Below, one piece after another: positions 7,501 to 46,500 of a stretch of 64,000 nt of DNA. Numbering within the stretch: position 1 is the stretch's first letter; each line of letters begins with the position of its first letter. Source of the stretch: Callorhinchus milii (Eukaryota); contig NW_024704742.1 of NCBI RefSeq assembly GCF_018977255.1, forward strand, positions 42,224,001 through 42,288,000, given 5' to 3'. A program made the position numbers and the translations under genes. The notes below the pieces were generated by a model. The model made no database searches and had not been told where the DNA came from. It saw only the letters and a program-made list of their open reading frames with translations.

Positions 7501-10500
7501 TGGTTTGGGGTTATAGCACTTTTGTTTCCACTGGATTTGTACAGTACAGACAAAGTGAGCGTGGAGAATTTATGGAATCCGCACTCTCATTCTCTGTGTC
7601 TCTTATGGTGGGTGAGCCTGTTGTGGAAGCTGTCATATTTGCTGACCTCGTCCCTGCTGGATGTCTTAGTTTGGACTCTGCCATGTGTGAACAATGTTGA
7701 TATGTTTATCACACACTGTCAAAGCAAGCAGCAGGAATGAAGATGGATCAGAAGCTGGGCCTGACTGGAAAGAAAATAGGATGTGTTTGCAGCATTATTA
7801 AAGGGCAGTGGCATTCTACGACAGATTATCTGGGAATTACTGGCTCCTCCACTTGCATGGAGAAATGAGCTGAGACAGTACCATTCATTTGGCTGATTTG
7901 CAGTATATAGTGCCAGGCAGGCACTCTCTATGAATGTGTGAAGCCAGTGATGTGTGGCAGGAATGAAGCTTAGAAAGCACACATCTCAGTGTAATGGAGT
8001 AGCTCAAAGGAACACTTTTGTGGCGTTAAGAAGTGGCCCGCTGAACACCCACAACAGCCCAGAGAAGTCCATGCCAAATCAATACCTTGTTTTCAGTAGC
8101 TCCCAAGTCATGATACCCGACCATAAATGAGGAAAAATTCAATAAAGAAAAATGTATTTGTTTGGCCGACCAAAAAGGTTGGCCACCACTGTTCTATAGC
8201 AAGACTCTTAATCCAGCAGTCTAAAATTTACATTTAATGCAAGCTTTACATAGGGTCTGACACTACCACATAAATTAGCCAGATAGTGAATGTTAGCAGA
8301 ATTCAGCCAGGAAGCATCACAGTGCTGTCTTCATCTAATGCCAACATATACAGTCTATGCACTTTCCACTGCATCAGGAGCAAGAACCCTAGCTGATTTT
8401 ATCCCTCTTTAAGCCTAGGGTTGCTGACAGCAACTATAATGTCCCTATTACTGTCTTGGCTGAGATCAACTAACCCAGACAAATGGGAGATCAATCCTGG
8501 GACTCTCTGAGGCTCAGTTTCACGGCAGCAGGGATGTTGCTAACTGAGGTGGCAGGGAAGTTGGGGGAAGAGTAGGGAAGTTTAAATTATAATAAAAAGA
8601 TTTGGAGGCAATTAAACGATACGTAAAATTCTGAGCGAATTTTAAAACCCGTTCTGTTTAAAGCATTAAAAGATTATTGGGCTCTGTTGAATCTTAGAGA
8701 ATGCCAGTCAGCAGAGGCCATTCTGATCTGCAGTGCACCTCAGTTTAGCAAGTCCTGAGGATTGGAATGACCAGGTGTTGTGCATGGAGTGAATGATTTA
8801 CTACAGATGTGGTGGCCCCATTAGCGAATTGTTCTCCCACAAAGAGATGCCAAACAAGCCTTCCCACAGGAGAATATGAAGCCCTGCAGGCAGCTCGTCT
8901 GTGCAAGCAGCTCCTGCTATTCCCTTTTGTTTGCAAAAAAAATTGCAGTGAAATTCAGAACACTCGGATACCTTTTCCAAATCCGTTCTCCTGAAATGGC
9001 TCATTCGTGCAGAGGGCTATTTGTAGTTTTGATGCAGACTGCCAGTAAAACGCTTTGGCTGCCGTGCTTTTCACTGGGATTTCCCGGGCATGATCTGAGA
9101 TGAGCTAGTATTACCTGGAGATTATAAATAAGTCGGCAATCTATCAGCGCATCTATCAGTTTGAGGGAAAATAAACTGAGCTCAAGATGCTACTTCAAAA
9201 AGATTTGATTATTTATTGTGGGGGAAAGATAAATGTTGGGGAGTTAGCACGAGGGTGGATTTTGTTAACCTCTAGAGAACATTTTGTATAGGAAACATTT
9301 CTCATATTCCTTACTCCATCTGCCTCCCAAAGGAACAGGACATGGTCTTCACGTCAGATCAGATTGTTAAGCCAGTGCTCATCCCAGCCTGGATCCTAGC
9401 CAAAAGGCCAAAAACAAATTTTCTATGCTATAGAAAAGATTTTTTTGCAGGCAACAGTTCTCACACAGGATGGGGGTGGGGGAAAGCAATAGATGCATCC
9501 TAGAGGATGTCTGATTTAGAAATCCTGGGTAATATGTGGTTTGAGGAACAGTATGCACGGATTTGCTGGTAAAGAGAAAATGAGAACGTCATGCTGAGAG
9601 TATGTTCCCTGGAACTCCTGAAGTCACTCACTGAATAAATCATGTGAGGACCATAAGAAACGAGCAGCACATGGGTTTGATTTGCATATTGTAACTCCCA
9701 TTAAATTAGCTTTGTGACTTCAATTCAACCCTCATTATTGGGGAGCACTGATAGACTCCAGTGACATTTCAGTTGGTATTAACTACATGAATGGTTTTAT
9801 GCAGTTAATCCATTTATGCAGTTAGTACCATGAGACCAGCACCACGACTTATGTCACTCAGTGAGGAGTAACAGAGTGCTTTCTCTTCAAAATGCAATTT
9901 TAATTTGCAGACTATCTGTTCAATTATCTTAGCTGTATGAGTGCTGGAGCTTGCTTGCCTAACGTGTCTTCTTAGTTCATATTAGTCTGGAATTGTCACT
10001 GTATGACATAGATCTTTTTCTGTATCAATTTAGATCAAACAGAATGATGATACTCTTCCATTTGATATAGCGCCTTTCATCTCAGGAGGACATGTCAAAG
10101 TATTTGCTGCAAAGTGTAGTAACTGTGTGGAGTCCTGTAGCTCAGTGGTTAGAGCACTCGCCTTGCAAGCGAGAAACCTGGGTTCAATTCCAGGCAGGGC
10201 GAAACTTTGGGCAAGTTTCCTTACTCCACACGCCTAATAATAATCCCTCCAAAACAAAACAATAATAAATTGGTAATTTTCAATCCACGACTGTGTGGGA
10301 CACTGCTGTGCGCAATTGGCTGCCGCGTTTCGCTCACAAATATACAGTCAATTCACTTGACAGTATATTCTGTGAAGAGCTTTGAGACGTCTAGAAGATG
10401 TGAAAAGTGCTATATCAAATGCAAGGATTATTATTATTATTTTATTGGCAGTTGTAGCAGCCAATTTGCACACTTGCACACAGCAACATCCCACAAATAG

Positions 10501-13500
10501 CCATGAAGTGAATGACCAATTTTATTGGGAGGGTTGTTGGTCTGGACACCAAGAGAAATTGCCTTCTCTCCCTTTTGAATAGTGTAATGGGATCCTTAAT
10601 GTCCAGTTGAAAAGACAGATGAGAATCTGATCCGAAATAATGAGATAATGGACATTTTAAAGAGTTTAGGTGACCTACAGCCTGTACAGGAAGGTAATCG
10701 AGGGGTATCAGTGCAGACTGAGCCTAAGGGTGCCTATCACACACTCCCTTGGTTTCAGCACTCAAGACTCTACCCCATTTGAAGGGAGCTATATAAATGC
10801 AAGTTTTTTTTGCTGTAAACCATTTGCAATACGCTTTTGCCATTTTACAGCCAGACCAGCAGGTGGAGTATTTTGTTGAAACAGCATGTTCTAGTAAGAG
10901 GGAGGTCCCAGTTAAATGTTGGCCAGACATGGAGCTCCATTGGCAGTGACCATGGAGAAGGAAATAAAAGGCAGTTCTGTAGGAACAAAGCCAGAGGGTT
11001 TTAAGAATATACATTTCAGGCAGAAAAATAACAGGATGTCAAAGAGCAGCAGGAACAGGCAAAGCACTTCCACCTGCAAAGGAGTTAAACTCTCTCCTTG
11101 GCAACAAACTTTATGGCTGTCTTAAGTGAGATTTTGCAAACCAAAACATCTTATAGTTTTGTACTGAGGTTGTATGTTTAGTGACAGGTACCTTTTTTTC
11201 CTGACAGGTTGCTGAATGCCAATAAAATAAACTGCCTGCGTGTGGATGCCTTTCAGGATCTCCATAACCTGAACCTTCTCTCTCTGTATGACAACAAGTT
11301 ACAAACTATTGCCAAAGGAACCTTTGCCCCTCTGCGAGCCATCCAGACTCTGTATGTATTCTCGGTTATTCATGAAGTGAATGATGCTAATTTGTTTTTC
11401 AATTTACTTACGTTTAGGGTCTGGGTTAGGGAGGGGGATACCAGCCAACATTCTTGTTGAACATCGCTCTCCAGTGGCTGTTGCTAGAAAGTTGCCTTGG
11501 GTGGACTCAGAAGGATAACCTGTGCTTTGATTTCCTTCCATGGTTGGACTGGACAGACTGTTGATATTCCATGTTCACATGTGATTTGGGACAGGAAGGT
11601 GGCCATTGCAAGTGGAACCGTACTGCAGCTTCAGTCACTCCCCATCTTGAGTCAAGACATATATCTTTGACAGCACTTCTTGTTATTTTTCCCCTCCTCA
11701 CCTCCTTTGGCTCACAACCTAAGTCAAGTGCTCAGCCAGCAGTGTCAAAGGCGTTGAGACATACTCCTGACAGGAAAGGCATTATATAAATTGTATTATT
11801 GGATTTAAATGTACTCACTCCTCCTGAAGAGGGATGGAAGAAAACTGGAGGAAATATAATTGAATTGAATTTCCCTGGGCCATGTCACTGTGTCTCATTC
11901 AGCACTCCAAGCAAGACAGCTCTTGCGCCATCCAGTAATGAGGTTCATGAGCAGCCATGGGAGCAAGTCGCTGTTCATGAATAGCATAGTGTGAATCATT
12001 GCGAGTGGAGACCCACATCCTGACTCAATTGTAATGGAGCACAGAGATACATTTAATTGGCGCAAGATGCGTTCAGCTAGGCCTAAGAAAATAAGTTTAG
12101 ACTCAGTGATGGATGTTTGGAACATACAGCCAGATGGGATTGGAGTCTCAAAAACATTAAAGACATTAAAACTGAAGCTGGATGCTGTATTTGGTGAGCT
12201 ATATTAGTAGAAGAATGAGTGTTAGTGGCTAAATGGCCTTTCATCGACTCTTAACATCGCTTATGTCTTTTATAGCAATTTACAGCACAGGAGACCATTT
12301 GACCCTTCAGGTCTGCACTTTGCCGAGGTCCTAGTGTTTGATCAAATGACATTATTTTAAGAATGAATAACTACAAATTAAATGCATACATCCCGAGACA
12401 TAACACCACTCCTCCACACTGAGCGCATTATCGGATTTCCTTCAGTTTCGTAAAGTCACTTGTTAAAAGGCTCATTTCCCATAGTTACCAGCAGTGCTCT
12501 GAAACCTGCTGCATCAGTGTATCTGATAAGCAAATGCTCTTCCAGCCAGAGCTTGCATTAAATAATTCAAGCATTGTCGTCTTGCCATGGCTCGTCAACC
12601 TGGGGGATTGGCCGTTTCAAAGTGGACACTCACAGTTACTGGGTCCGTTGCCAACTTGCACATTGTAGATTCTTAATGTTTCATCAGACTCCCAATAAAT
12701 GCATGTCAGCTGCAAATAGCAATCGTCAACATTGCCCAGATCCACCCGTTCCCAGTGAGTTACACCGGTTTCCTTTCAGGAGCCCCCAGCACTGCTGTTT
12801 CATATTTGTTCCAGCGTGCGCCTTATGTTCCTGGTTGACTTGACCCTGTGTCTACTTTATTTGCTTCTATTCCTCTCAAAAGGCATTTGGCGCAGAATCC
12901 GTTCATTTGTGACTGCCACTTGAAGTGGCTTGCCGACTACCTGCACGCAAACCCCATTGAAACCAGTGGTGCCCGCTGCACCAGCCCTCGCCGCCTGGCA
13001 AACAAGAGGATCGGGCAGATCAAAAGCAAGAAGTTCCGCTGCTCAGGTAATTGAATTCCGGCAACTTCGTTATTCTAGAAATGTGTGTTTTTTTTTAAAA
13101 AAAGAGCTCTCTTGGCATGCTGCTGATCTCACGTGGATTCTGAAAATGTGTCTGTTTTGCTGTTGAATTATTAAGGTTCTCAGCAGCTTTTCCCCTTTGT
13201 TTCTGACTCCGTGCTAACCATAGTAGGTCAGTCAAGTTCAATTTGACTTTGCCTTTTATTTTGCTGCTGTTGACAAGACAATAATGGAGTAATCTGTGGA
13301 TTTAATACAAAGTAAATTGTTTCTTTTTTTCTGGCCGCTAACATTCAGGTGCATCTCTTCTGTCTTTCTCTCTTTTGTTGTGTTTATAGCGAAAGAACAG
13401 TATTTCATTCCAGGTAGGTTTTCCTGCAGTGGGGCTGATGAGCTATGGATTTCCCTTAGGCTTTAGTGGAGTGTTGCATGCTGTAGTTGTGCAGTGAATC

Positions 13501-16500
13501 TCCCTTTAGACGGTCCCTTGCTTAGTCTTCCAGTAGCTGAATCTGTTGCATGTGCTCTTTTAGCTACCTAGCCAAATCCTTAAGTCTCCATGCTTCCTAA
13601 GCCTGCTATACAGTTGCCAATATGATGGGGTTCCTTTTATTCTCATTTTACTTTCTTGACACTCCCCCACCTAGGGACTTTTTTTTAATATTGATGTGTT
13701 CCCCAGTCTTCTTTGTTTGACTGGGGAACTTTCATGTATATTACACACATGTATGTACACATACACACAGATGTGGGAATACCAATATTTGAAACTGGAA
13801 GAAAGAGCAGGTGCTGCCCTTGGTTCACAGTTTTCCTCTCTAGTGGTTCGGAAAGGGCAAGGGGAGCTACTGGCCCTGCGATAGTTGCAACAAGTCAGTT
13901 TGATGCTTGAACAATCCTGTGGGTTTGAAACACACAAATATGTAGTGGTGGGCAAATTGAAATAAGGGTTTGCAGCCCTGAAAACAGGTAGAAATTCATG
14001 CTCGCCCAATCTCTTCAATCCTCTGACCTGCTCTGAGGCCTCTGCTATGGTTCTCTGAACCAGACACTTGATTGCACTGCTAGTTATCTGCCCTTTGCAT
14101 CTCCACGTTCGCCTCTGCTTTTTCCTTCTACAGGCTGAGATTGGAAACTTGCCCTTTAGTGAATCAACCTGTCACCGTAGAATTATAATTTCATAGAAAT
14201 TGACAAGATAGAAGAAGGCCGTTTGGCCCATTGTGTCTGTGCTGGCTACTTCAAGAGCAATCCTTTCAGTCCCATTTACTTACTTTTCCCCCATACTTCT
14301 GTAATTGACTCCTTTTACATATTTATCTAGTTCCCTTTTGAAAGCCAATCTGGATTTTTCCTCAATCCCCAATCCCGGTAGGGTGTTCCATATCCTAACT
14401 TCTCTGTATGTGAAAAAAAATCTCCTAACCTCCCCATTCGCTCATTTGCTAACTATCTTAAATTGATGCCCTCTTGTCACTGACTCCCTGTCCAGTGGAA
14501 ATAATTTCTGCCGATCAAAATCCATCAGAATTATAATGACCTCTATCAGATCACCTCTCAACCATCGTTATTCCAACAGAAAAAGTCCCAGTTCCTCTAG
14601 TCTCTCTTTTATCAACTCCTCTATTTCCTTGACATCCTTCCTAAAGTTGGTTGACCAATACTGCACGCAATATTCTTACTGTTCTCTAACTAATAATTTC
14701 TATCCATTTAGCATTACCTCTTTGCTTTTGTATTCTATACCCCTATTTACAAAACCTACACAACCTTTGAGGCTCATTTTCTGGTGACAAAATGGCAGAA
14801 TCGCTTCTGTTTTCCTGAGGAGGGCTTTCTCATCCCTACTGTGATAGGAGTTTACCAGATGCGTTGTTACAGAAAGAAGAGGCACTGACCAGGGCTGGGA
14901 GTATTCAGTCACTTTGAATTCCAAAAACTGATTCAAAAGATGAATGGTTGCCAAAAAGTTCCACCTTTAAAGAATTTTTTAAACATTGCAGGGGGTTGGT
15001 GGGGGGAGGTTGGGGTGTATGAAAATGATCCATCTTCATATTTTTGGCAACAGTGTAGCTGTGCTAGTGAAGTGTAATTCTGTTACTGCTCTAGCTAATG
15101 AAGATTAGATTGTTCCCAGCAGACAATTTGATCTGAATAGACCAGCTAATCTTCATGTCCATTAATAAACGATGATGTGTGGTGTGTGTGTTGTGTGAAT
15201 ATGAGTAGTGCATATCACTAATATGCTTGTGTGCCGGTATGAATGCAGAATGAGCATATTCTGACCTAACACAGAGTGGAGCTGCACTAAGAGTAAATCC
15301 CTAAGTACGGTCGAGATTGATTGCAGGAACTGTTTTGACTGTTTTTCAAGTTTTAAGCCTTGGTTTCCCAGAGTATTTGACAAATATGTCAAGTGAATGA
15401 AATATTTAACGTGTCCAACAGCAGGCTGCAGGCATTTTTTTTATAGCCAGAGGCAGTCCGAGTGAATACTGAAGCTCTTTTGATGTGCTTTGGTACAAAA
15501 TCCATGAAGTGGCCTCCCTTGTGTTTACCATCATTAGCTGTAAACACCCATTGCTCATGTACAATGTAAGGTTCTTGAAAGTGGTGCCACAGTCCAGTGC
15601 CTTTAGGGTTATAGATCAGGCAATAATTAAGGGTTTATTCCCAGATATCCCACACCAGCAGGGAACACTTGCCTGGCACTCTGTAACTTGTCGCTGGGAG
15701 TTGTCAAGAACCTTGCCTGACAGACAAGTGTTGCCCAGTGTTCAGTGCATCTTCACAATCGTACTGTACACAGGTGGGGTCGGATCCAGGTTAGTGCAGT
15801 ATTGCATTGTCTAAGTGCTTCCTAGTGAAAGTTATTTGAGCCAAGGATCTCTTCTATTCAGCCAAATTGACAACTGCTGCCCTGCAAGAATCTTAACACA
15901 AGTTTGGATTGGCTTCTTTGCTTTCCTGACTATAAATGCAATCGCTTTCTCTTTCTTTTTCTCTATCTTCCTCTCTCTCTGTCCCTTCTGCACTTTACTT
16001 TTTGCAGGAATTCACCATTTTGGCTGTAAGTACAACTGAGATCTTTATTCCCCACCTCTGGCACTGATTTCTCTTTCCCTCCAGTTGTTTTTCCCCTATA
16101 TGTACTGAGCTTGATCCTTCACCCATCATTCCTCACCTCTTCTCCTGGCAGTTCTCAACAAATCATCCAAGCCTCAGTAACAGTACCCCTACCCACCCCA
16201 GTACCATTCACGTGACCTCTCCCTGTTTTGTTAGCAGTGATACCAAGCACCAAGCTGGGGCACTTGATCTTAGAAAGAACTTCTCTTTCATTTAGGCATG
16301 TTTACTGCTTGTGTGTAGGGTACATTCTCAGTAGCTGTTACACTGTCCATTGTTACTGAGTCTGAAAAGCAATGTTTTGGCTGTGAATACCAGTGCTTTA
16401 GTACCCTTGACCCCTAATGCTACACCCTCTACCATTTAAATGCTGTGCCTTCTTTCCCGTAATATTTCCCCTCACACTTTTACCTGGCCTAGCTGATGCG

Positions 16501-19500
16501 GTTCTGGGACTCAGCGGGATTTTTCGTTGTGCTTGATCTAACCATGTGGTTGCAAGGTACGAATAAAACATGGTTCTGTCAAGCACCATGGAACGTCACG
16601 TAGCCTTCTACAGCATGCTCTCATCTACAGCAAATTCAGTAGATATATTTAGAGCGAGCCTGTCAAAGGCCACCAAGACTTGGGATGGTAGTATTGCAGG
16701 TGGAAGACGTTAGAGCCAGGAACTGTTTTATTGCATCTGTATTGAGGTCACAGCTGATTGAATTTCTCCAATAAAAAAACAATGGATAAAAATGATAGAC
16801 GAGGTATGGAGTGGAAAGGCAGGTGAGGGGGATGAATGCAATGAGTTTACCAGATGCCGTTATAGAAAGGAGAGGCACTGACACAGGGTTGGAAGTGTTC
16901 AGTCGCTTTGAATTCCAGTCACTGATTCAAAAGAATGGCTCAGGTGGGAGCAGTAAATTGAATTAGATAAGGCTTAGTAACACATGATTGCACTGGTTAC
17001 AGGAGAGTGGGAAGATTGCTAGCTTTGTAGTAGACAGTTGCATTAGAAGGTGTCTGCATTGAAAGGTCAGATTGTAAATGTTACCTCTACTCTTCCAGAC
17101 CCTGGCTTTACCTTTGTCATAAAGTTCAAGATCTAGGTGCTTAGGTCTTGAAGTTTTGCTATCTGTGTGGTTTTAATTAAAGTTCACCCTGAGATTCTCC
17201 TGCCCTGACATTTTGTTCAATTCCCTTGTACATTTCCACTTCTCTTACGGTGTGGGCTTTTTTTTCAATGTGCTTACTGAATAATATCTGCATTCTGACT
17301 GGACTCATCTGCAGGCACAGAGGATTACAGATCCAAGCTCAGCGGAGATTGCTTCATGGATCTTGCTTGCCCTGAGAAGTGTCGTTGTGAAGGAACCACT
17401 GTGGACTGCTCCAATCAAAGACTCACCAAATTCCCTGACCACATCCCTCAGTACACCGCTGAGCTGTAAGTTAACACAGCAGGGCTTGCTTCTTTACACA
17501 TGCACTCACACACACAACAGACACTCTCTCTCATCTGCATTTTGGCAACAAAACAAAGAAATTTAAAATTCATTTAGAAAACAGCTACAGGCAATATCCC
17601 AGCTTCCCTTCCAGCTGAAAGAAGCAAATGCACTCAGGGGAGAAGGGCTGTTGGATGCACATGATGACCAGAAAAGAAAGCAGGGGGAGAAACACTTAGG
17701 CTCCTGTTAGAAAGCATTGATGCCTACAGTGTGCTGGTCCATCACTCTACAAAACCTGATTCAGACAGTAACAAGCTCATCACGTTTAACTGGGTGGGTT
17801 TTCTTTCTGTTTGGCTGCTTTGGAGATGAACCTTGAACCCATATGTTACAAAAGATTAGTGAAGCAACCGCGAAGTATGAGCCACTAACTACATTAGTTC
17901 ATACTTTTGTGGGACATTGCTGTGCGCAATTGGCTGCCGCGTTCGCCCACAAATATACAGTCAATTCACTTTACAGTGTGTTCTGTGAAGCGCTTTGGGA
18001 CGTCCTCCCGACGTGAAAAGCGCTATATCAAATGCAAGGGTTATTATTATTATTATTATTATATTACTTGTAGTCCCGGTAAATACCAGTCAAACGCAAG
18101 GTTTATAATTATGAACTGATATATCGAGCGAGGTTGAGATGTCACGTTGCTAGATAAGGCAATACTGGAGGTTGACCCATATGAGGGAGAAATTCAACCT
18201 AGATTTATGTAACATTTTAGAGCATCCCTAATTTGGCAATTTTTTTAAATACAGTGCAGTCCTGTTACAGTATGCTTCTCTATAGTGTGACTGGCTTATA
18301 CCGGAGATGCACTGTGGATTCCATGCATTGTTCATGAGCGTACCCACAGCTCTCTCATTTCCTATGCATCAGCCAGCTTTTCACACTAAAATAACCGGCT
18401 TCCAATTCATTAAGACGCCTTCTGGGTCACTTCTTGCTTTGCTGCACGTGCACAAAACAGGAAGTGGTATCAATCACTCCCTACTGACTCCAAAGTCAAC
18501 CATTTTAGCTCTCCGAAAGCACTCACGAAAACGGCCAACTTCCAGGTCATCAGAATTGCCATTAACACTACTTCGCAACTTGTCCATATACACAAAAAAA
18601 CAGGAAATGACATTGCATTGATCAACCAACCTGGGAGCTGTCTATTTGTTTCTTTTCAGCGCTCTCTCTACGTGACGACCGATTGTGCACGTAAACAGTC
18701 AAATCCACTATCACACCTCACTATAAGTCAGGAGATGATTTTATGGATCCAAACAACATGTTTTAACAAGGATACAGAGCACAGTTTTAATTTTGTAGCT
18801 GGTTTTCTGTAAGTTCTTTTAAGAAAATACAGAAAACCAAAATGGAAGTTGAGACTGAATTTAGCAATTTGCCGAATTTAGCAGCTCTGAAATCTGTAAA
18901 GGTGTAGAGTAAACAGTGCTATGTTTCAGAGTAAAGGTATTAGTTCTGTATATCAGAAGGACTCAGTCTAACATTCCAATATAAAGATAATGTGATAAAA
19001 CTCACTCCCTTAAATCACAGTGTGATGATTCAACCCTTGTTCACAAAGTGGATTGTTTCACATTCTTGCATTTGCCAGTAACGTTAAACAGTTTGGTTCT
19101 GAAAGCACAAGACGTGTGACCCTTCAGTTAATGGTCAATCAACATGGTTGAGTCCTGTGTTTATAAGTATAGGTGGTATGATTTAGAGATACACTCAATG
19201 GTGGTACAAACCCACAGGCAGTAAGTCTGCATCTGGTTTAGAATGTATCTTCCGTTAGTAATAAAACTGAGTGGATTTAGAATTATTGTAAGTGTCACTC
19301 TCGCAGTACAGTATTATCTGAGAATACTTTGAAGTGATTTTTTTTCAAGATGAACTTCATTAAAGCTACCGCGAGAAAGACTACGCTAGCTGTAGGAGAT
19401 CTCAGTGGTTGCCTGACTGAGTAAAAACACTACTTTCTTCTGAATGACGTTTCCTAATTTTTTTTTCTTTTTTTTTTCTCTTGAATACTTCAGGCGCCTC

Positions 19501-43500: not shown

Positions 43501-46500
43501 AATGAGCTGAGTGGCTTGAACAAAGCACTCCTTCTCGGTCAGGCTGGTGGAGAGTGTGAGAGCACTGAGACCCAGGCGTTTCCTAGTGATTCACCTGGTG
43601 ATCGATGGCATGTCAACGCAGCGAAACAAAGAAATGTAAAAGTCATTCACAGACAGCTGCACAGAAGCTAATGAGCAAAGTCCGCAAGCTTTTTAGATGT
43701 CAGGATATTAAATAAAAGGCTTAGATTAGTGCAGCTGCATGGTTCATGAATTATGAAGCAGATCGCTCGATTAGTGTACTTTAATAATTTCACATGAGAA
43801 TGGCAATTAATTCATCAAGATGCTTGTGTGTACGGGTGGCTCCATGCTCGGGCACTTCATTAAGGTATTAAAAGTCCCTTTTCTTAGAAAGACTTAACCA
43901 GCTACAGGTTTGCATCAAAAAAATGTTTTAATAAAGCCACTAATTTTAAGCACTTATAGTAAGTATTACAGTTAATAGATGTGAAGAACATTTAATGAGA
44001 TGGAAAGAGTAATAATTTGCATTCGAAAAGTCTAATCCCTTTTTTGAAACTCAGGAAACTGAGTGAAGGACTGGGGTCACTATCATTTAAATAGTACTGT
44101 ATGTCGCCAAGTTAAAAAGAACAGAGGCAAAACCAGATAACGTAACAAGTGGCCACTGATAGCAAGCTTGGGTTCAATATAATCGTCTGAGGGAGGGAAG
44201 CCTAAAGGTGGTAAGGAATTGCACAGTTCAGGTCATGAGAAAGATTGAGTTACAGTAGGAGATTAGGTTCCACCTATTTTTTAAAAAAAAATAGCTTGAT
44301 GCTATGATGGGGGGACAGTAGGGTGGGTCTTCTGGAAGGTTGAGATCCGATGGGCCAAAAGGTTGCCTTCATCCAAAACCAATCTTGTGAATTCAGAGAA
44401 GATGACGAGTGAATACCCCACCCCAACCGCCCTACCATCGCTGGCCGGGCCTTCAGCCTCTCAGTCCCTAGGCTCTGGAACTCTATCCCCCAGTGCCTTC
44501 GCCTTGCCTCCTCCCTTTCCTCCTTCAAGGCCGGTCTCAAGACCTTTCTCTTTGACCGTGCCTTCAGCTCCCCTCTCGACTCTCTACCCCCTCCTCGCTC
44601 CCTCCCTTCCCTCACCCTGACCATTTCCCCCCTGCTCGGGTCCTGACCCAACTGTACAGCGCCTTGGGACGTCCTCCTGACGTGAAAGGCGCTCAATAAA
44701 TGGAATCTTGTTGTTGTTGAGTGGGCAACTCAACATATTTGAATATTGGGTGGAATAAGAGAGGAATTCTCAGAGGAGCAATGGGAATTAATGAAATTGA
44801 GACAGGAGAGAGCGAGAGAGGGTGGATACACATTGTCTGATATGTGACCCACCTCCCTGATGGAGGGTTACATGCACAATGTGTATCCTGTCCAGTTCTG
44901 CAAGAGAGATGTTAGAAGAGCATCGCCAACAAAAGGGCAATGCCCAGAGACAAATTTGGAATTCATAGAGACTTGGGCATAGTTGGCGCAAAAAGAGGAA
45001 GCTTAGTTACTTGGAGTTAGGTTTAATAATGTAGCAGATGTGAGAATTCCACTTGAGATGTGAGGAGATAGTAAGATTAGGCAGTCATGGTTAGACCTAT
45101 GAGAGACATGGAGAAACAGCATCTTTGAGGAATTGAAAGAAACAAAGATTAATATTGTCACATTAGAGGAAAGCCAATGTTTACTGATTGTCAGTAGACA
45201 TGATGAACCTTATGTGTACTGAGATGAATTGATGAATTGATTATTTTCTTAGTATTAAAACCATTTTCTGAAAATGTAAGATGATGACCAATTTTGGACA
45301 TTTTTGAAAAGTAAATAAAAATTAAGAGTAAATTTTAAAAAATTCCAAACTTCCGTGCGATCTTAAATGTTTTTTATTCTGGTTTCCACTACGAGGTGCC
45401 TCAGTGAGAATGTATGGCGTGACTTGTCCTCTTTCCTCAGGTGCTCATGCGCTGATGGCTTTGAGGGTGAGATCTGTGAGGTGAACATTGACGACTGTGA
45501 AGACAACGACTGTGAAAATAATTCAACCTGTGTCGATGGAATCAATAACTATACCTGCCTCTGTCCACCTGAATACACAGGTAAGGAGTTGATGCCAACT
45601 CAGTCTTTCCTAAAGCATGCACATGTACACACACATGCAAACATTGTACACTTATATACACAAATACACATACATGTACAAAGACACCATAGATTAGAGC
45701 ACAATTCAGTCTGTCACAATATGGCACAAATAATGGGAACTAATTCATATGGCAGTATTTAATTCCTTGTGTTTTTTTATGGTTATTAATAAAAATCTTT
45801 ATGGAAATAAAGATGTATTGACCTGTTTGAATAGCGGCAACTTGTAGTGTAATAGGAAATTATGGTTTATTTTAGGTATTCTTAGTTTACCCTTTCTGCT
45901 GGTATAGGGTTCCACAGTAGCACTTGTGTGCAAGGAATCATTTCATATTGTTTTGATACATCCATTGAAACCTGAGATGTTAGGAGAGTTCAGGCTCTTC
46001 AGCGTGTGTGACCCTGTGAATGTGAGGGCATCAGCAATAAGGTTATTCTTACAAGTGTCCAATGACCACATGCTGTTTCCAGAAGGAGTCAGTCAGTAGA
46101 GTTCAGAAATGGACATTGAACAAGACACCTTCCTCACATGTAATAGTTCAGCACTATATGGAGTCCTATGTGAAGTCCTGTAGCTCAGTGGTTAGAGCAC
46201 TCGCTTTGCAAGTGAAAGACCTGAGTTCAATTCCAGGCAGGGCGAAACCTTGGGCAAGTTTCCTTACTCCACACGCCTAATAATAATCCCTCCAAAAAAT
46301 CAAAACAATAATAAATTGGTCATTTTCAGTCTACGACTGTTTGTGCGCAATTGGCTGCCGCGTTCGCCCATAAATATACGGTCAATTCACTTTACAGTAT
46401 ATTCTGTGAAGCACTTTGGGACGTCTAGAAGACGTGCAAAGTGCTATATCAAATGCAAGGATTATTATTATTATTATATTCCACAATGCAGTTTGTCACT

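What the first reader, a model, noticed from the sequence alone, without database searches (positions are those of the whole stretch)
16008..16025. Candidate undescribed 18-nt microexon adding a His-His motif and a free cysteine to the D2-D3 linker
Seen: an AG-free zone of ~103 nt (15903-16005) with a CTGAC branch motif, a long CT tract and TGC motifs; acceptor TTTGCAG; donor GTAAGT. The exon is 18 nt in phase 1-1. Inclusion gives ...[23 protein letters not shown]..., because the junction codon changes from G|GC (Gly) to T|GC (Cys). It sits just after the Robo- and heparin-binding D2 domain and ~500 nt upstream of mir-218-1. Inference: the extra Cys could allow covalent dimers or disulfide reshuffling, and splicing here could be coupled to Drosha processing of mir-218. 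I do not recognise this peptide from Slit2 annotations.
Basis: partly seen in the sequence, partly recalled or inferred. Interest (0 to 1): 0.8.

Follow-up and report, generated by a model that had tools for sequence, protein, structure and literature searches.

The report
Conserved 18-base Slit2 linker microexon
The 18-base stretch is very probably a real, ancient alternative exon of the axon-guidance gene Slit2 that public gene models of sharks, fishes, frogs, reptiles and a bird already contain, although no searchable paper was found that discusses it.

Summary
Bases 16008-16025 lie in the Slit2 intron that hosts mir-218. They have a 103-nt AG-free, pyrimidine-rich acceptor region, a TTTGCAG acceptor and a GTAAGT donor, and they keep phase 1-1. 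Of 112 frame-keeping AG..GT candidates in that intron, this is the only one that passes a strict splice-site filter.

The decisive evidence is comparative. 16 of 217 Slit protein models examined, from 15 species, carry the same insertion at the same junction. These include five shark and ray species with the identical GIHHFG+C, plus frogs, lizards, a snake, a jay and teleosts. His-His is nearly invariant and Cys is invariant.

So the exon is real and at least as old as jawed vertebrates. "Undescribed" is wrong for databases. It appears right for the six elephant-shark models held (0 of 6) and for the searchable literature.

RNA support in this species could not be obtained.

The extra Cys falls in the D2-D3 linker, which is reported to be disulfide-bonded. 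Covalent dimers, disulfide reshuffling and coupling to mir-218 processing remain untested speculation.

Interest is modest: a known kind of feature that is already modelled elsewhere.

The parts
12884..13046 (+). Slit2 exon encoding the end of LRR domain D2 (C-terminal cap, ...KSKKFRCS), ending in phase 1 with G. The start coordinate is approximate, taken from tblastn.
   Evidence: tblastn of P0083/P0114 gives 100% identity over 12884-13045. The sequence and the donor G|GTAATT were read.
13390..13413 (+). Known 24-nt alternative exon AKEQYFIP ('exon 15' of mammalian SLIT2), phase 1-1.
   Evidence: Sequence read. Models with and without AKEQYFIP appear. The exon-15 variants are described in PMC6406468 (passages).
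15903..16007 (+). Acceptor region of the microexon: a 103-nt AG-free zone with 79% pyrimidines, CTGAC at 15926, CT-rich tracts, TGC at 15989 and 16003, and the acceptor AG at 16006-16007.
   Evidence: Script; sequence.
16008..16025 (+). 18-nt cassette microexon, phase 1-1. It encodes (G)IHHFG and turns the next junction codon into Cys. The net insertion is IHHFGC.
   Evidence: The identical peptide stands at the same junction in 5 shark and ray species, and close variants stand in 10 further species.
16026..16031 (+). Donor site GTAAGT.
16517..16598 (+). mir-218 precursor in the sub-intron downstream of the microexon, 491 nt after its donor and 716 nt before the next exon.
   Evidence: Rfam RF00255, 91.4 bits, E 5.5e-22.
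17315..17466 (+). Slit2 exon encoding the rest of the D2-D3 linker (including the linker Cys in GDCF) and the D3 N-terminal cap. It starts with GC, the last two bases of the junction codon.
   Evidence: Sequence. 100% identical to C. milii models P0114 and P0117.

Best explanation
Bases 16008-16025 are the elephant-shark copy of an ancient alternative cassette microexon of Slit2. When it is spliced in, after either the 24-nt AKEQYFIP exon or the ...FRCS exon, it inserts six residues (IHHFGC) into the linker between LRR domains D2 and D3. D2 is the Robo- and heparin-binding domain. The reading frame is unchanged. The insertion lengthens the stretch between the last D2 cap cysteine and the linker cysteine of GDCF, from 13 or 21 residues to 19 or 27. 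It also adds a nearly invariant His-His pair and an invariant extra cysteine.

Shown here: the splice signals, the frame and the orthology to exons modelled in 15 other species.

Inferred: (a) the exon is actually spliced in this species. (b) Inclusion is tissue-regulated, probably neural. This rests on the short length, the long CU-rich AG-free acceptor region, the TGC motifs next to the acceptor and the strong donor, a pattern I recall as typical of SRRM4/PTBP-controlled microexons. (c) The product changes the geometry or the redox and metal chemistry of the disulfide-tethered D2-D3 hinge. It does not abolish function.
For: Splice anatomy and frame. Only 1 of 112 frame-keeping candidates in the intron passes the strict site filter. 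The window is Slit2 of Callorhinchus milii or a very close relative: the exon at 17317-17466 is 100% identical to models P0114 and P0117, the exon map is, and mir-218 lies in the intron. 16 of 217 Slit models with a recognisable D3 N-cap carry G[IV][HP]H..C directly before [TV]EDY. The variants are: GIHHFGC in Pristiophorus, Pristis, Scyliorhinus canicula, S. torazame and Mobula; GIHHLGC in Xenopus laevis, Engystomops and Pyxicephalus; GVHHLGC in Anolis and Hemicordylus; GVHHGGC in Crotalus; GVHHFGC in Cyanocitta; GIHHINKC in Danio; GVHHVGC in Gasterosteus; GVPHNVGC in Oncorhynchus gorbuscha. The variation looks like coding constraint: Cys is kept in 16 of 16, positions 2 and 5 vary, and the two longer forms differ by exactly one codon. 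These models come from several annotation pipelines (source names). In a full-length shark isoform each inter-domain linker has one Cys (273, 513, 734) and each LRR domain one internal Cys (170, 393, 633, 828). The microexon Cys (501) is an extra one. A paper passage states that Slit2 LRR domains are tethered by disulfide-bonded linkers (PMC5807052).
Against: There is no transcript evidence for this species. All 6 C. milii models held lack the exon. I saw only protein models of other species, not the RNA evidence behind them. Some pipelines use proteins of other species as evidence, so the 15 species are not fully independent. None of the 11 mammalian SLIT2 models seen carries the exon. That may reflect isoform sampling or a real loss. 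Neural regulation and any effect on the protein are inferred only. No TGCATG motif lies within 300 nt. The exact partner of the linker cysteine is recalled from Howitt et al. 2004, which I could not read.
Confidence: 0.85

Rival explanations
1. A chance pseudo-exon: intronic sequence that happens to have good splice-site look-alikes and an open frame, and is never spliced in.
For: No RNA evidence in this species. 0 of 6 C. milii models include it. 112 frame-keeping AG..GT candidates exist in the intron.
Against: It is the only one of the 112 with strong sites. Its peptide is identical (7 of 7 residues, junction Cys included) to an exon modelled at the same junction in 5 shark and ray species, and it is recognisable in 10 more vertebrate species. 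Such conservation between chimaeras and sharks or rays is not expected of neutral intron sequence.
Confidence: 0.05
2. A conserved non-coding element, for example one serving mir-218 processing or Slit2 regulation, that gene predictors wrongly call an exon and then pass from species to species through protein-homology evidence.
For: It lies 491 nt upstream of mir-218. I could not inspect the transcript support of any model. Two models (P0080, P0164) read through the acceptor from intron sequence, which shows ab initio behaviour.
Against: The changes between species follow a coding pattern: synonymous-type I/V, a variable fifth residue, invariant Cys, and length changes of exactly one codon. 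The models come from RefSeq-type, Ensembl/UniProt and other submitters' pipelines. The Slit3 paralogue also hosts a mir-218 copy but shows no counterpart in the 1.5 kb upstream, and its junction codon could not give Cys. The element is therefore not a general requirement of mir-218.
Confidence: 0.06
3. A real exon in other vertebrates, but silenced or very rarely used in the elephant shark.
For: 0 of 6 C. milii models include it.
Against: The AG, the GT, the frame, the pyrimidine tract and all seven residues are intact and identical to the shark and ray form. Purifying selection would not be expected on an unused exon.
Confidence: 0.04

Closest known systems
Slit2 isoform models containing ...[19 protein letters not shown]... 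in cartilaginous fishes (for example isoform X1 of Pristiophorus japonicus, X6 of Pristis pectinata, X2 of Scyliorhinus canicula, X3 of S. torazame, X1 of Mobula birostris)
   Same: Same gene, same junction between the AKEQYFIP exon and the TEDY exon, same 6-residue net insertion, identical peptide.
   Different: None in the peptide. In this species the exon is absent from the 6 models held. I could not see RefSeq models of C. milii.
SLIT2 exon 15 (24 nt, AKEQYFIP): Slit2-WT versus Slit2-deltaE15 (PMC6406468 passages; PMC6584916 passages)
   Same: An alternative, frame-keeping, phase 1-1 microexon in the same D2-D3 linker, directly upstream (13390-13413). Published work shows that the isoforms differ in activity.
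   Different: A different exon, 2.6 kb upstream. It adds no Cys or His. It is described in mammals, whereas the 18-nt exon was seen in none of the 11 mammalian models.
nSR100/SRRM4-dependent Slit2 microexon in the fifth EGF domain (PMC4387716 passages)
   Same: A short neural-type microexon of the same gene.
   Different: It adds nine residues to EGF5, far downstream. It is not the exon studied here.
Robo1/Robo2 microexon 6b, controlled by NOVA (PMC6687390 listing and abstract; passage in PMC12308364)
   Same: A conserved microexon in the same signalling pathway that tunes repulsive activity.
   Different: It is in the receptor, not the ligand, and uses a different regulator. No functional data exist for the Slit2 linker exon.

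Membership tests
Slit2 gene (vertebrate Slit homolog 2) | Exons encoding the D2 C-cap and D3 N-cap match Slit2 proteins | tested here: met
   The exon at 17317-17466 is 100% identical to C. milii models and 82-96% identical to other listed Slit models. 20 or more exons are mapped by tblastn.
Slit2 gene (vertebrate Slit homolog 2) | mir-218 hosted in the intron before the D3 N-cap exon | tested here: met
   RF00255 at 16517-16598, 91.4 bits.
Conserved Slit2 D2-D3 linker microexon (G[IV]HHxG + junction Cys) | Position between the AKEQYFIP exon and the TEDY exon | tested here: met
   The models show the insertion directly before [TV]EDY.
Conserved Slit2 D2-D3 linker microexon (G[IV]HHxG + junction Cys) | 18 nt (or 21), phase 1-1, last base T so that the junction codon is Cys | tested here: met
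Conserved Slit2 D2-D3 linker microexon (G[IV]HHxG + junction Cys) | Peptide matches the annotated orthologues | tested here: met
   GIHHFGC is identical to the form in 5 shark and ray species.
Conserved Slit2 D2-D3 linker microexon (G[IV]HHxG + junction Cys) | Spliced into mRNA in this species | not testable with these tools
   No RNA holder is listed.
SRRM4/PTBP-type neural microexons | Length of 27 nt or less | tested here: met
   18 nt. The class definition is recalled.
SRRM4/PTBP-type neural microexons | UGC motif close to the acceptor, behind a long pyrimidine tract | tested here: met
   TGC at 15989 and 16003; 103-nt AG-free zone with 79% Y; CTCTCT runs at 15971-15980. The link between this motif and the regulators is recalled, not tested.
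SRRM4/PTBP-type neural microexons | Neural-specific inclusion that depends on SRRM4 | not testable with these tools
   No expression data were available.
nSR100-dependent Slit2 EGF5 microexon (PMC4387716) | Adds nine residues to the fifth EGF domain | tested here: not met
   This exon adds six residues to the D2-D3 linker. Paper passage.

The most novel reading that the evidence does not exclude
Slit2 has carried a regulated 18-nt exon since at least the common ancestor of jawed vertebrates. The exon places an unpaired, invariant cysteine and a His-His pair in the disulfide-tethered hinge between the Robo-binding domain D2 and D3. Inclusion would switch the ligand between hinge states: an alternative disulfide with the D2 internal cysteine, a covalent dimer, or a metal- or pH-sensitive contact. 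That switch would tune Robo or heparan-sulphate signalling. The exon may have been lost in mammals, which would explain why it has not been studied.
Probability: 0.2. Interest if true: 0.6.

Novelty: new member of a known kind. Interest (0 to 1): 0.35.

Why it matters
Slit2 is a central axon-guidance and cell-migration cue, and its D2 domain binds Robo. The neighbouring 24-nt exon in the same linker already gives isoforms with different activities (PMC6406468). A second cassette in that linker is conserved from chimaeras to birds and carries an invariant extra cysteine. It is therefore a cheap, testable candidate for isoform-specific Slit2 behaviour in fish, frog and chick models. For the scan itself the result is sobering. 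The exon is real but already present in public gene models of many species. What is new is its presence in this genome's Slit2, where the six models held lack it, and the fact that it goes unmentioned in the papers searched.

Tried and rejected
This leaves expression in this species open.

Fragment search: a search of short proteins (17-84 aa) with the linker profile found 4 hits. None covered the microexon.

Cluster look-ups: a repeated look-up of the shark/ray cluster returned the same 15 of its 103 members. The other members of that cluster, and of the 3453-member amniote cluster, remain unseen, so I cannot say whether C. milii or mammalian models with the exon are held there.

Slit3 paralogue: I looked for a counterpart upstream of the second mir-218 copy on contig C13. 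The only hit was a 27-nt AG..GT candidate reading GRHHTVLFC. Its junction codon with the next exon would be T|GG, not Cys, and no supporting model was seen, so I rejected it as chance.

Papers: Howitt 2004 and Morlot 2007 are not held. One search failed on a term that was too short and was re-sent.

Literature on this exon: searches with 'Slit2'+'microexon', 'Slit2'/'exon 15'/'AKEQYFIP', six peptide strings (0 papers) and 'Slit2'+'miR-218'+'alternative splicing'+'host gene'+'intron' found no paper on it. Supplementary tables of microexon catalogues were not searched and may list it.

Structure prediction: not run. The only microexon-bearing model under 1200 residues (P0122) skips several LRR exons, and the tool returns no coordinates from which to judge disulfides.

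Earlier scan notes held nothing on this locus.

Full report
What is there. The window is a Slit2 locus. The exon at 17317-17466 translates to a D3 N-terminal cap that is 100% identical to two Callorhinchus milii (elephant shark) models and 82-96% identical to the other listed vertebrate Slit models. tblastn with a full-length shark isoform maps more than 20 exons along the window. The window's own assembly has 991.5 Mb in 1762 contigs.

Around the finding the gene reads as follows. An exon ends at 13046 (...KSKKFRCS, phase 1, last base G). The 24-nt alternative exon at 13390-13413 encodes AKEQYFIP and also ends in phase 1 with G. A 3.9-kb intron holds mir-218 at 16517-16598 (Rfam RF00255, 91.4 bits). 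The next exon runs from 17315 to 17466 and starts GC ACA GAG.

The observation.
- Bases 16008-16025 are GAATTCACCATTTTGGCT, preceded by CTTTTTGCAG and followed by GTAAGT.
- The last upstream AG is at 15901-15902. The AG-free zone 15903-16005 is therefore 103 nt long. It is 79% pyrimidine, with CTGAC at 15926, CTCTCT runs at 15971-15980, and TGC at 15989 and 16003.
- Translating 16007-16027 gives GIHHFGC. With either upstream donor the first codon is G|GA (Gly).
- The last exon base T joins GC of the next exon to give Cys where the skipping isoforms have G|GC (Gly). The net effect is an insertion of IHHFGC.

As a chance control I listed all AG..GT pairs in intron 13414-17314 that would make a 6-30-nt exon open in phase 1-1. 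There are 112. Only this one has at least 15 of 20 pyrimidines upstream, a YAG acceptor and a GTRAGT donor.

What it is. The decisive evidence is comparative. I searched the protein collection with the downstream exon and then with a small profile of the linker. I also listed members of the main clusters. I then extracted the linker in front of the D3 N-cap motif from every protein held. Of 225 proteins, 217 have the motif and 16 of these, from 15 species, carry an insertion G[IV][HP]H..C directly in front of [TV]EDY:
- GIHHFGC, identical to the window, in Pristiophorus japonicus, Pristis pectinata, Scyliorhinus canicula, S. torazame and Mobula birostris.
- GIHHLGC in Xenopus laevis, Engystomops pustulosus and Pyxicephalus adspersus.
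- GVHHLGC in Anolis carolinensis and Hemicordylus capensis.
- GVHHGGC in Crotalus horridus.
- GVHHFGC in Cyanocitta cristata.
- GIHHINKC in Danio rerio.
- GVHHVGC in Gasterosteus aculeatus (two models).
- GVPHNVGC in Oncorhynchus gorbuscha.

The Cys is kept in 16 of 16. His-His is kept in 15 of 16, and pink salmon has Pro-His. Positions 2 and 5 vary, and the two longer forms are longer by exactly one codon. This is the pattern of a coding exon under selection. The models come from several pipelines, as shown by the source names. Two of them (P0080, P0164) read into the exon from the intron, so they are ab initio calls on genomic sequence.

I conclude that 16008-16025 is the elephant-shark orthologue of an alternative Slit2 microexon that is at least as old as the split between cartilaginous and bony vertebrates.

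Limits of that evidence. I saw protein models, not the transcript support behind them, and pipelines may borrow proteins from other species as evidence. All six C. milii models held (UniRef entries) lack the exon: three have [13 protein letters not shown] and three have G-TEDY. RefSeq models of this species were not among the members I could list.

Eleven mammalian SLIT2 models were seen, from Camelus, Saguinus, Sciurus, Scotinomys, Equus, Ursus, Nasalis, Pteropus, Physeter, Acinonyx and Rhinopithecus. None has the insertion. Clustering at 90% identity hides most isoforms, so this does not show a mammalian loss.

Direct RNA evidence for this species could not be obtained.

How it probably works. 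In a full-length shark isoform that carries the exon (P0083), the cysteines of the LRR region follow a regular pattern. Each N-cap and each C-cap has four. Each domain has one internal Cys (170, 393, 633, 828). Each inter-domain linker has one Cys (273, 513, 734). The microexon Cys (501) is an additional one, 12 residues before the linker Cys 513 of GDCF.

The cap disulfides of D4 given in PMC2693880 (figure legend) account for the four plus four cap cysteines only. [quoted passage not shown] 2004. I recall, but could not read, that the linker Cys pairs with the internal Cys of the preceding domain.

The two alternative exons therefore set the length of the tether between the last D2 cap Cys and the linker Cys. 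It is 13 residues with neither exon, 21 with AKEQYFIP and 27 with both. The 18-nt exon also adds a third cysteine that either stays free or competes for the D2 internal cysteine.

Isoforms without the insertion and without a signal-peptide Cys have 106 cysteines (P0191, P0220). P0083, P0201, P0213 and P0210 carry the insertion and have 107. Totals vary among models, so this parity argument is rough.

No solved structure covers the site. The Slit2 chains in the PDB align to residues 278-490, 517-729 and 738-921 of P0083. Covalent dimers and disulfide reshuffling are possible but untested.

Regulation is also inferred. The short length, the distant branch region, the CU-rich tract, the TGC motifs next to the acceptor and the consensus donor fit what I recall of SRRM4/PTBP-controlled neural microexons. 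No TGCATG lies within 300 nt.

Coupling to mir-218 processing has no support beyond proximity (491 nt). The Slit3-like paralogue on contig C13 also hosts a mir-218 copy, 1.8 kb before the homologous exon. It shows no convincing counterpart in the 1.5 kb upstream, and its junction codon is x|GG, which cannot give Cys.

Comparison with what is known. The nearest described feature is SLIT2 'exon 15', the AKEQYFIP exon just upstream, whose presence or absence changes Slit2 activity in lung-cancer models (PMC6406468, passages; PMC6584916, passages). [quoted passage not shown] A 2025 review of Slit-Robo signalling mentions microexons only for Robo1/2 (PMC12308364, passages). Four literature searches found no paper on the 18-nt exon: 'Slit2'+'microexon', 'Slit2'/'exon 15'/'AKEQYFIP', six peptide strings with 0 papers, and 'Slit2'+'miR-218'+'alternative splicing'+'host gene'+'intron'. 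Supplementary tables of microexon catalogues were not searched.

Verdict. It is not new to databases, since public isoform models of many species already contain it. What can be added is modest: its presence in this genome's Slit2, where the models held lack it; its age; the invariance of the Cys; and its position inside the disulfide-bonded D2-D3 linker. It also does not appear in any of the papers I could search.

Noticed in passing
window 10131-10202 and 46174-46245 (+): Two tRNA-like Rfam matches (58.8 and 46.2 bits) inside Slit2 introns. They are probably tRNA-derived SINE heads rather than tRNA genes.
   Followed up: no
L002/L004 (own genome contig C13, about 11.4989-11.5009 Mb): A second mir-218 copy (91.4 bits) lies 1.8 kb upstream of a Slit3-like D3 N-cap exon that is 74% identical to the window's. 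That exon starts with GG, so a Slit2-type junction Cys is impossible there. The only HH-containing AG..GT candidate upstream (27 nt, GRHHTVLFC) looks like chance.
   Followed up: partly
window 15815-16039 (+): The frame of the microexon stays open for 74 codons through the pyrimidine tract and acceptor. This explains why some ab initio models in other species (P0080, P0164) read into the exon from intron sequence.
   Followed up: partly
proteins P0124, P0211, P0218 (other species): Other small insertions stand at the same junction. A Chinook salmon model has GIVIATS-TEDY, six residues without His or Cys. Two partial bird models have GNFLS/GNFLR-TEDY. These may be diverged copies, alternative splice sites or model errors.
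   Followed up: no
proteins P0114, P0117, P0133, P0226, P0227: UniRef names five of the six C. milii models of this locus 'Slit homolog 1 protein', although they match this Slit2 locus exactly. P0114 also departs from the shark isoform P0083 over the D4 exons at about 33-37.8 kb of the window, which suggests mis-modelled exons.
   Followed up: no
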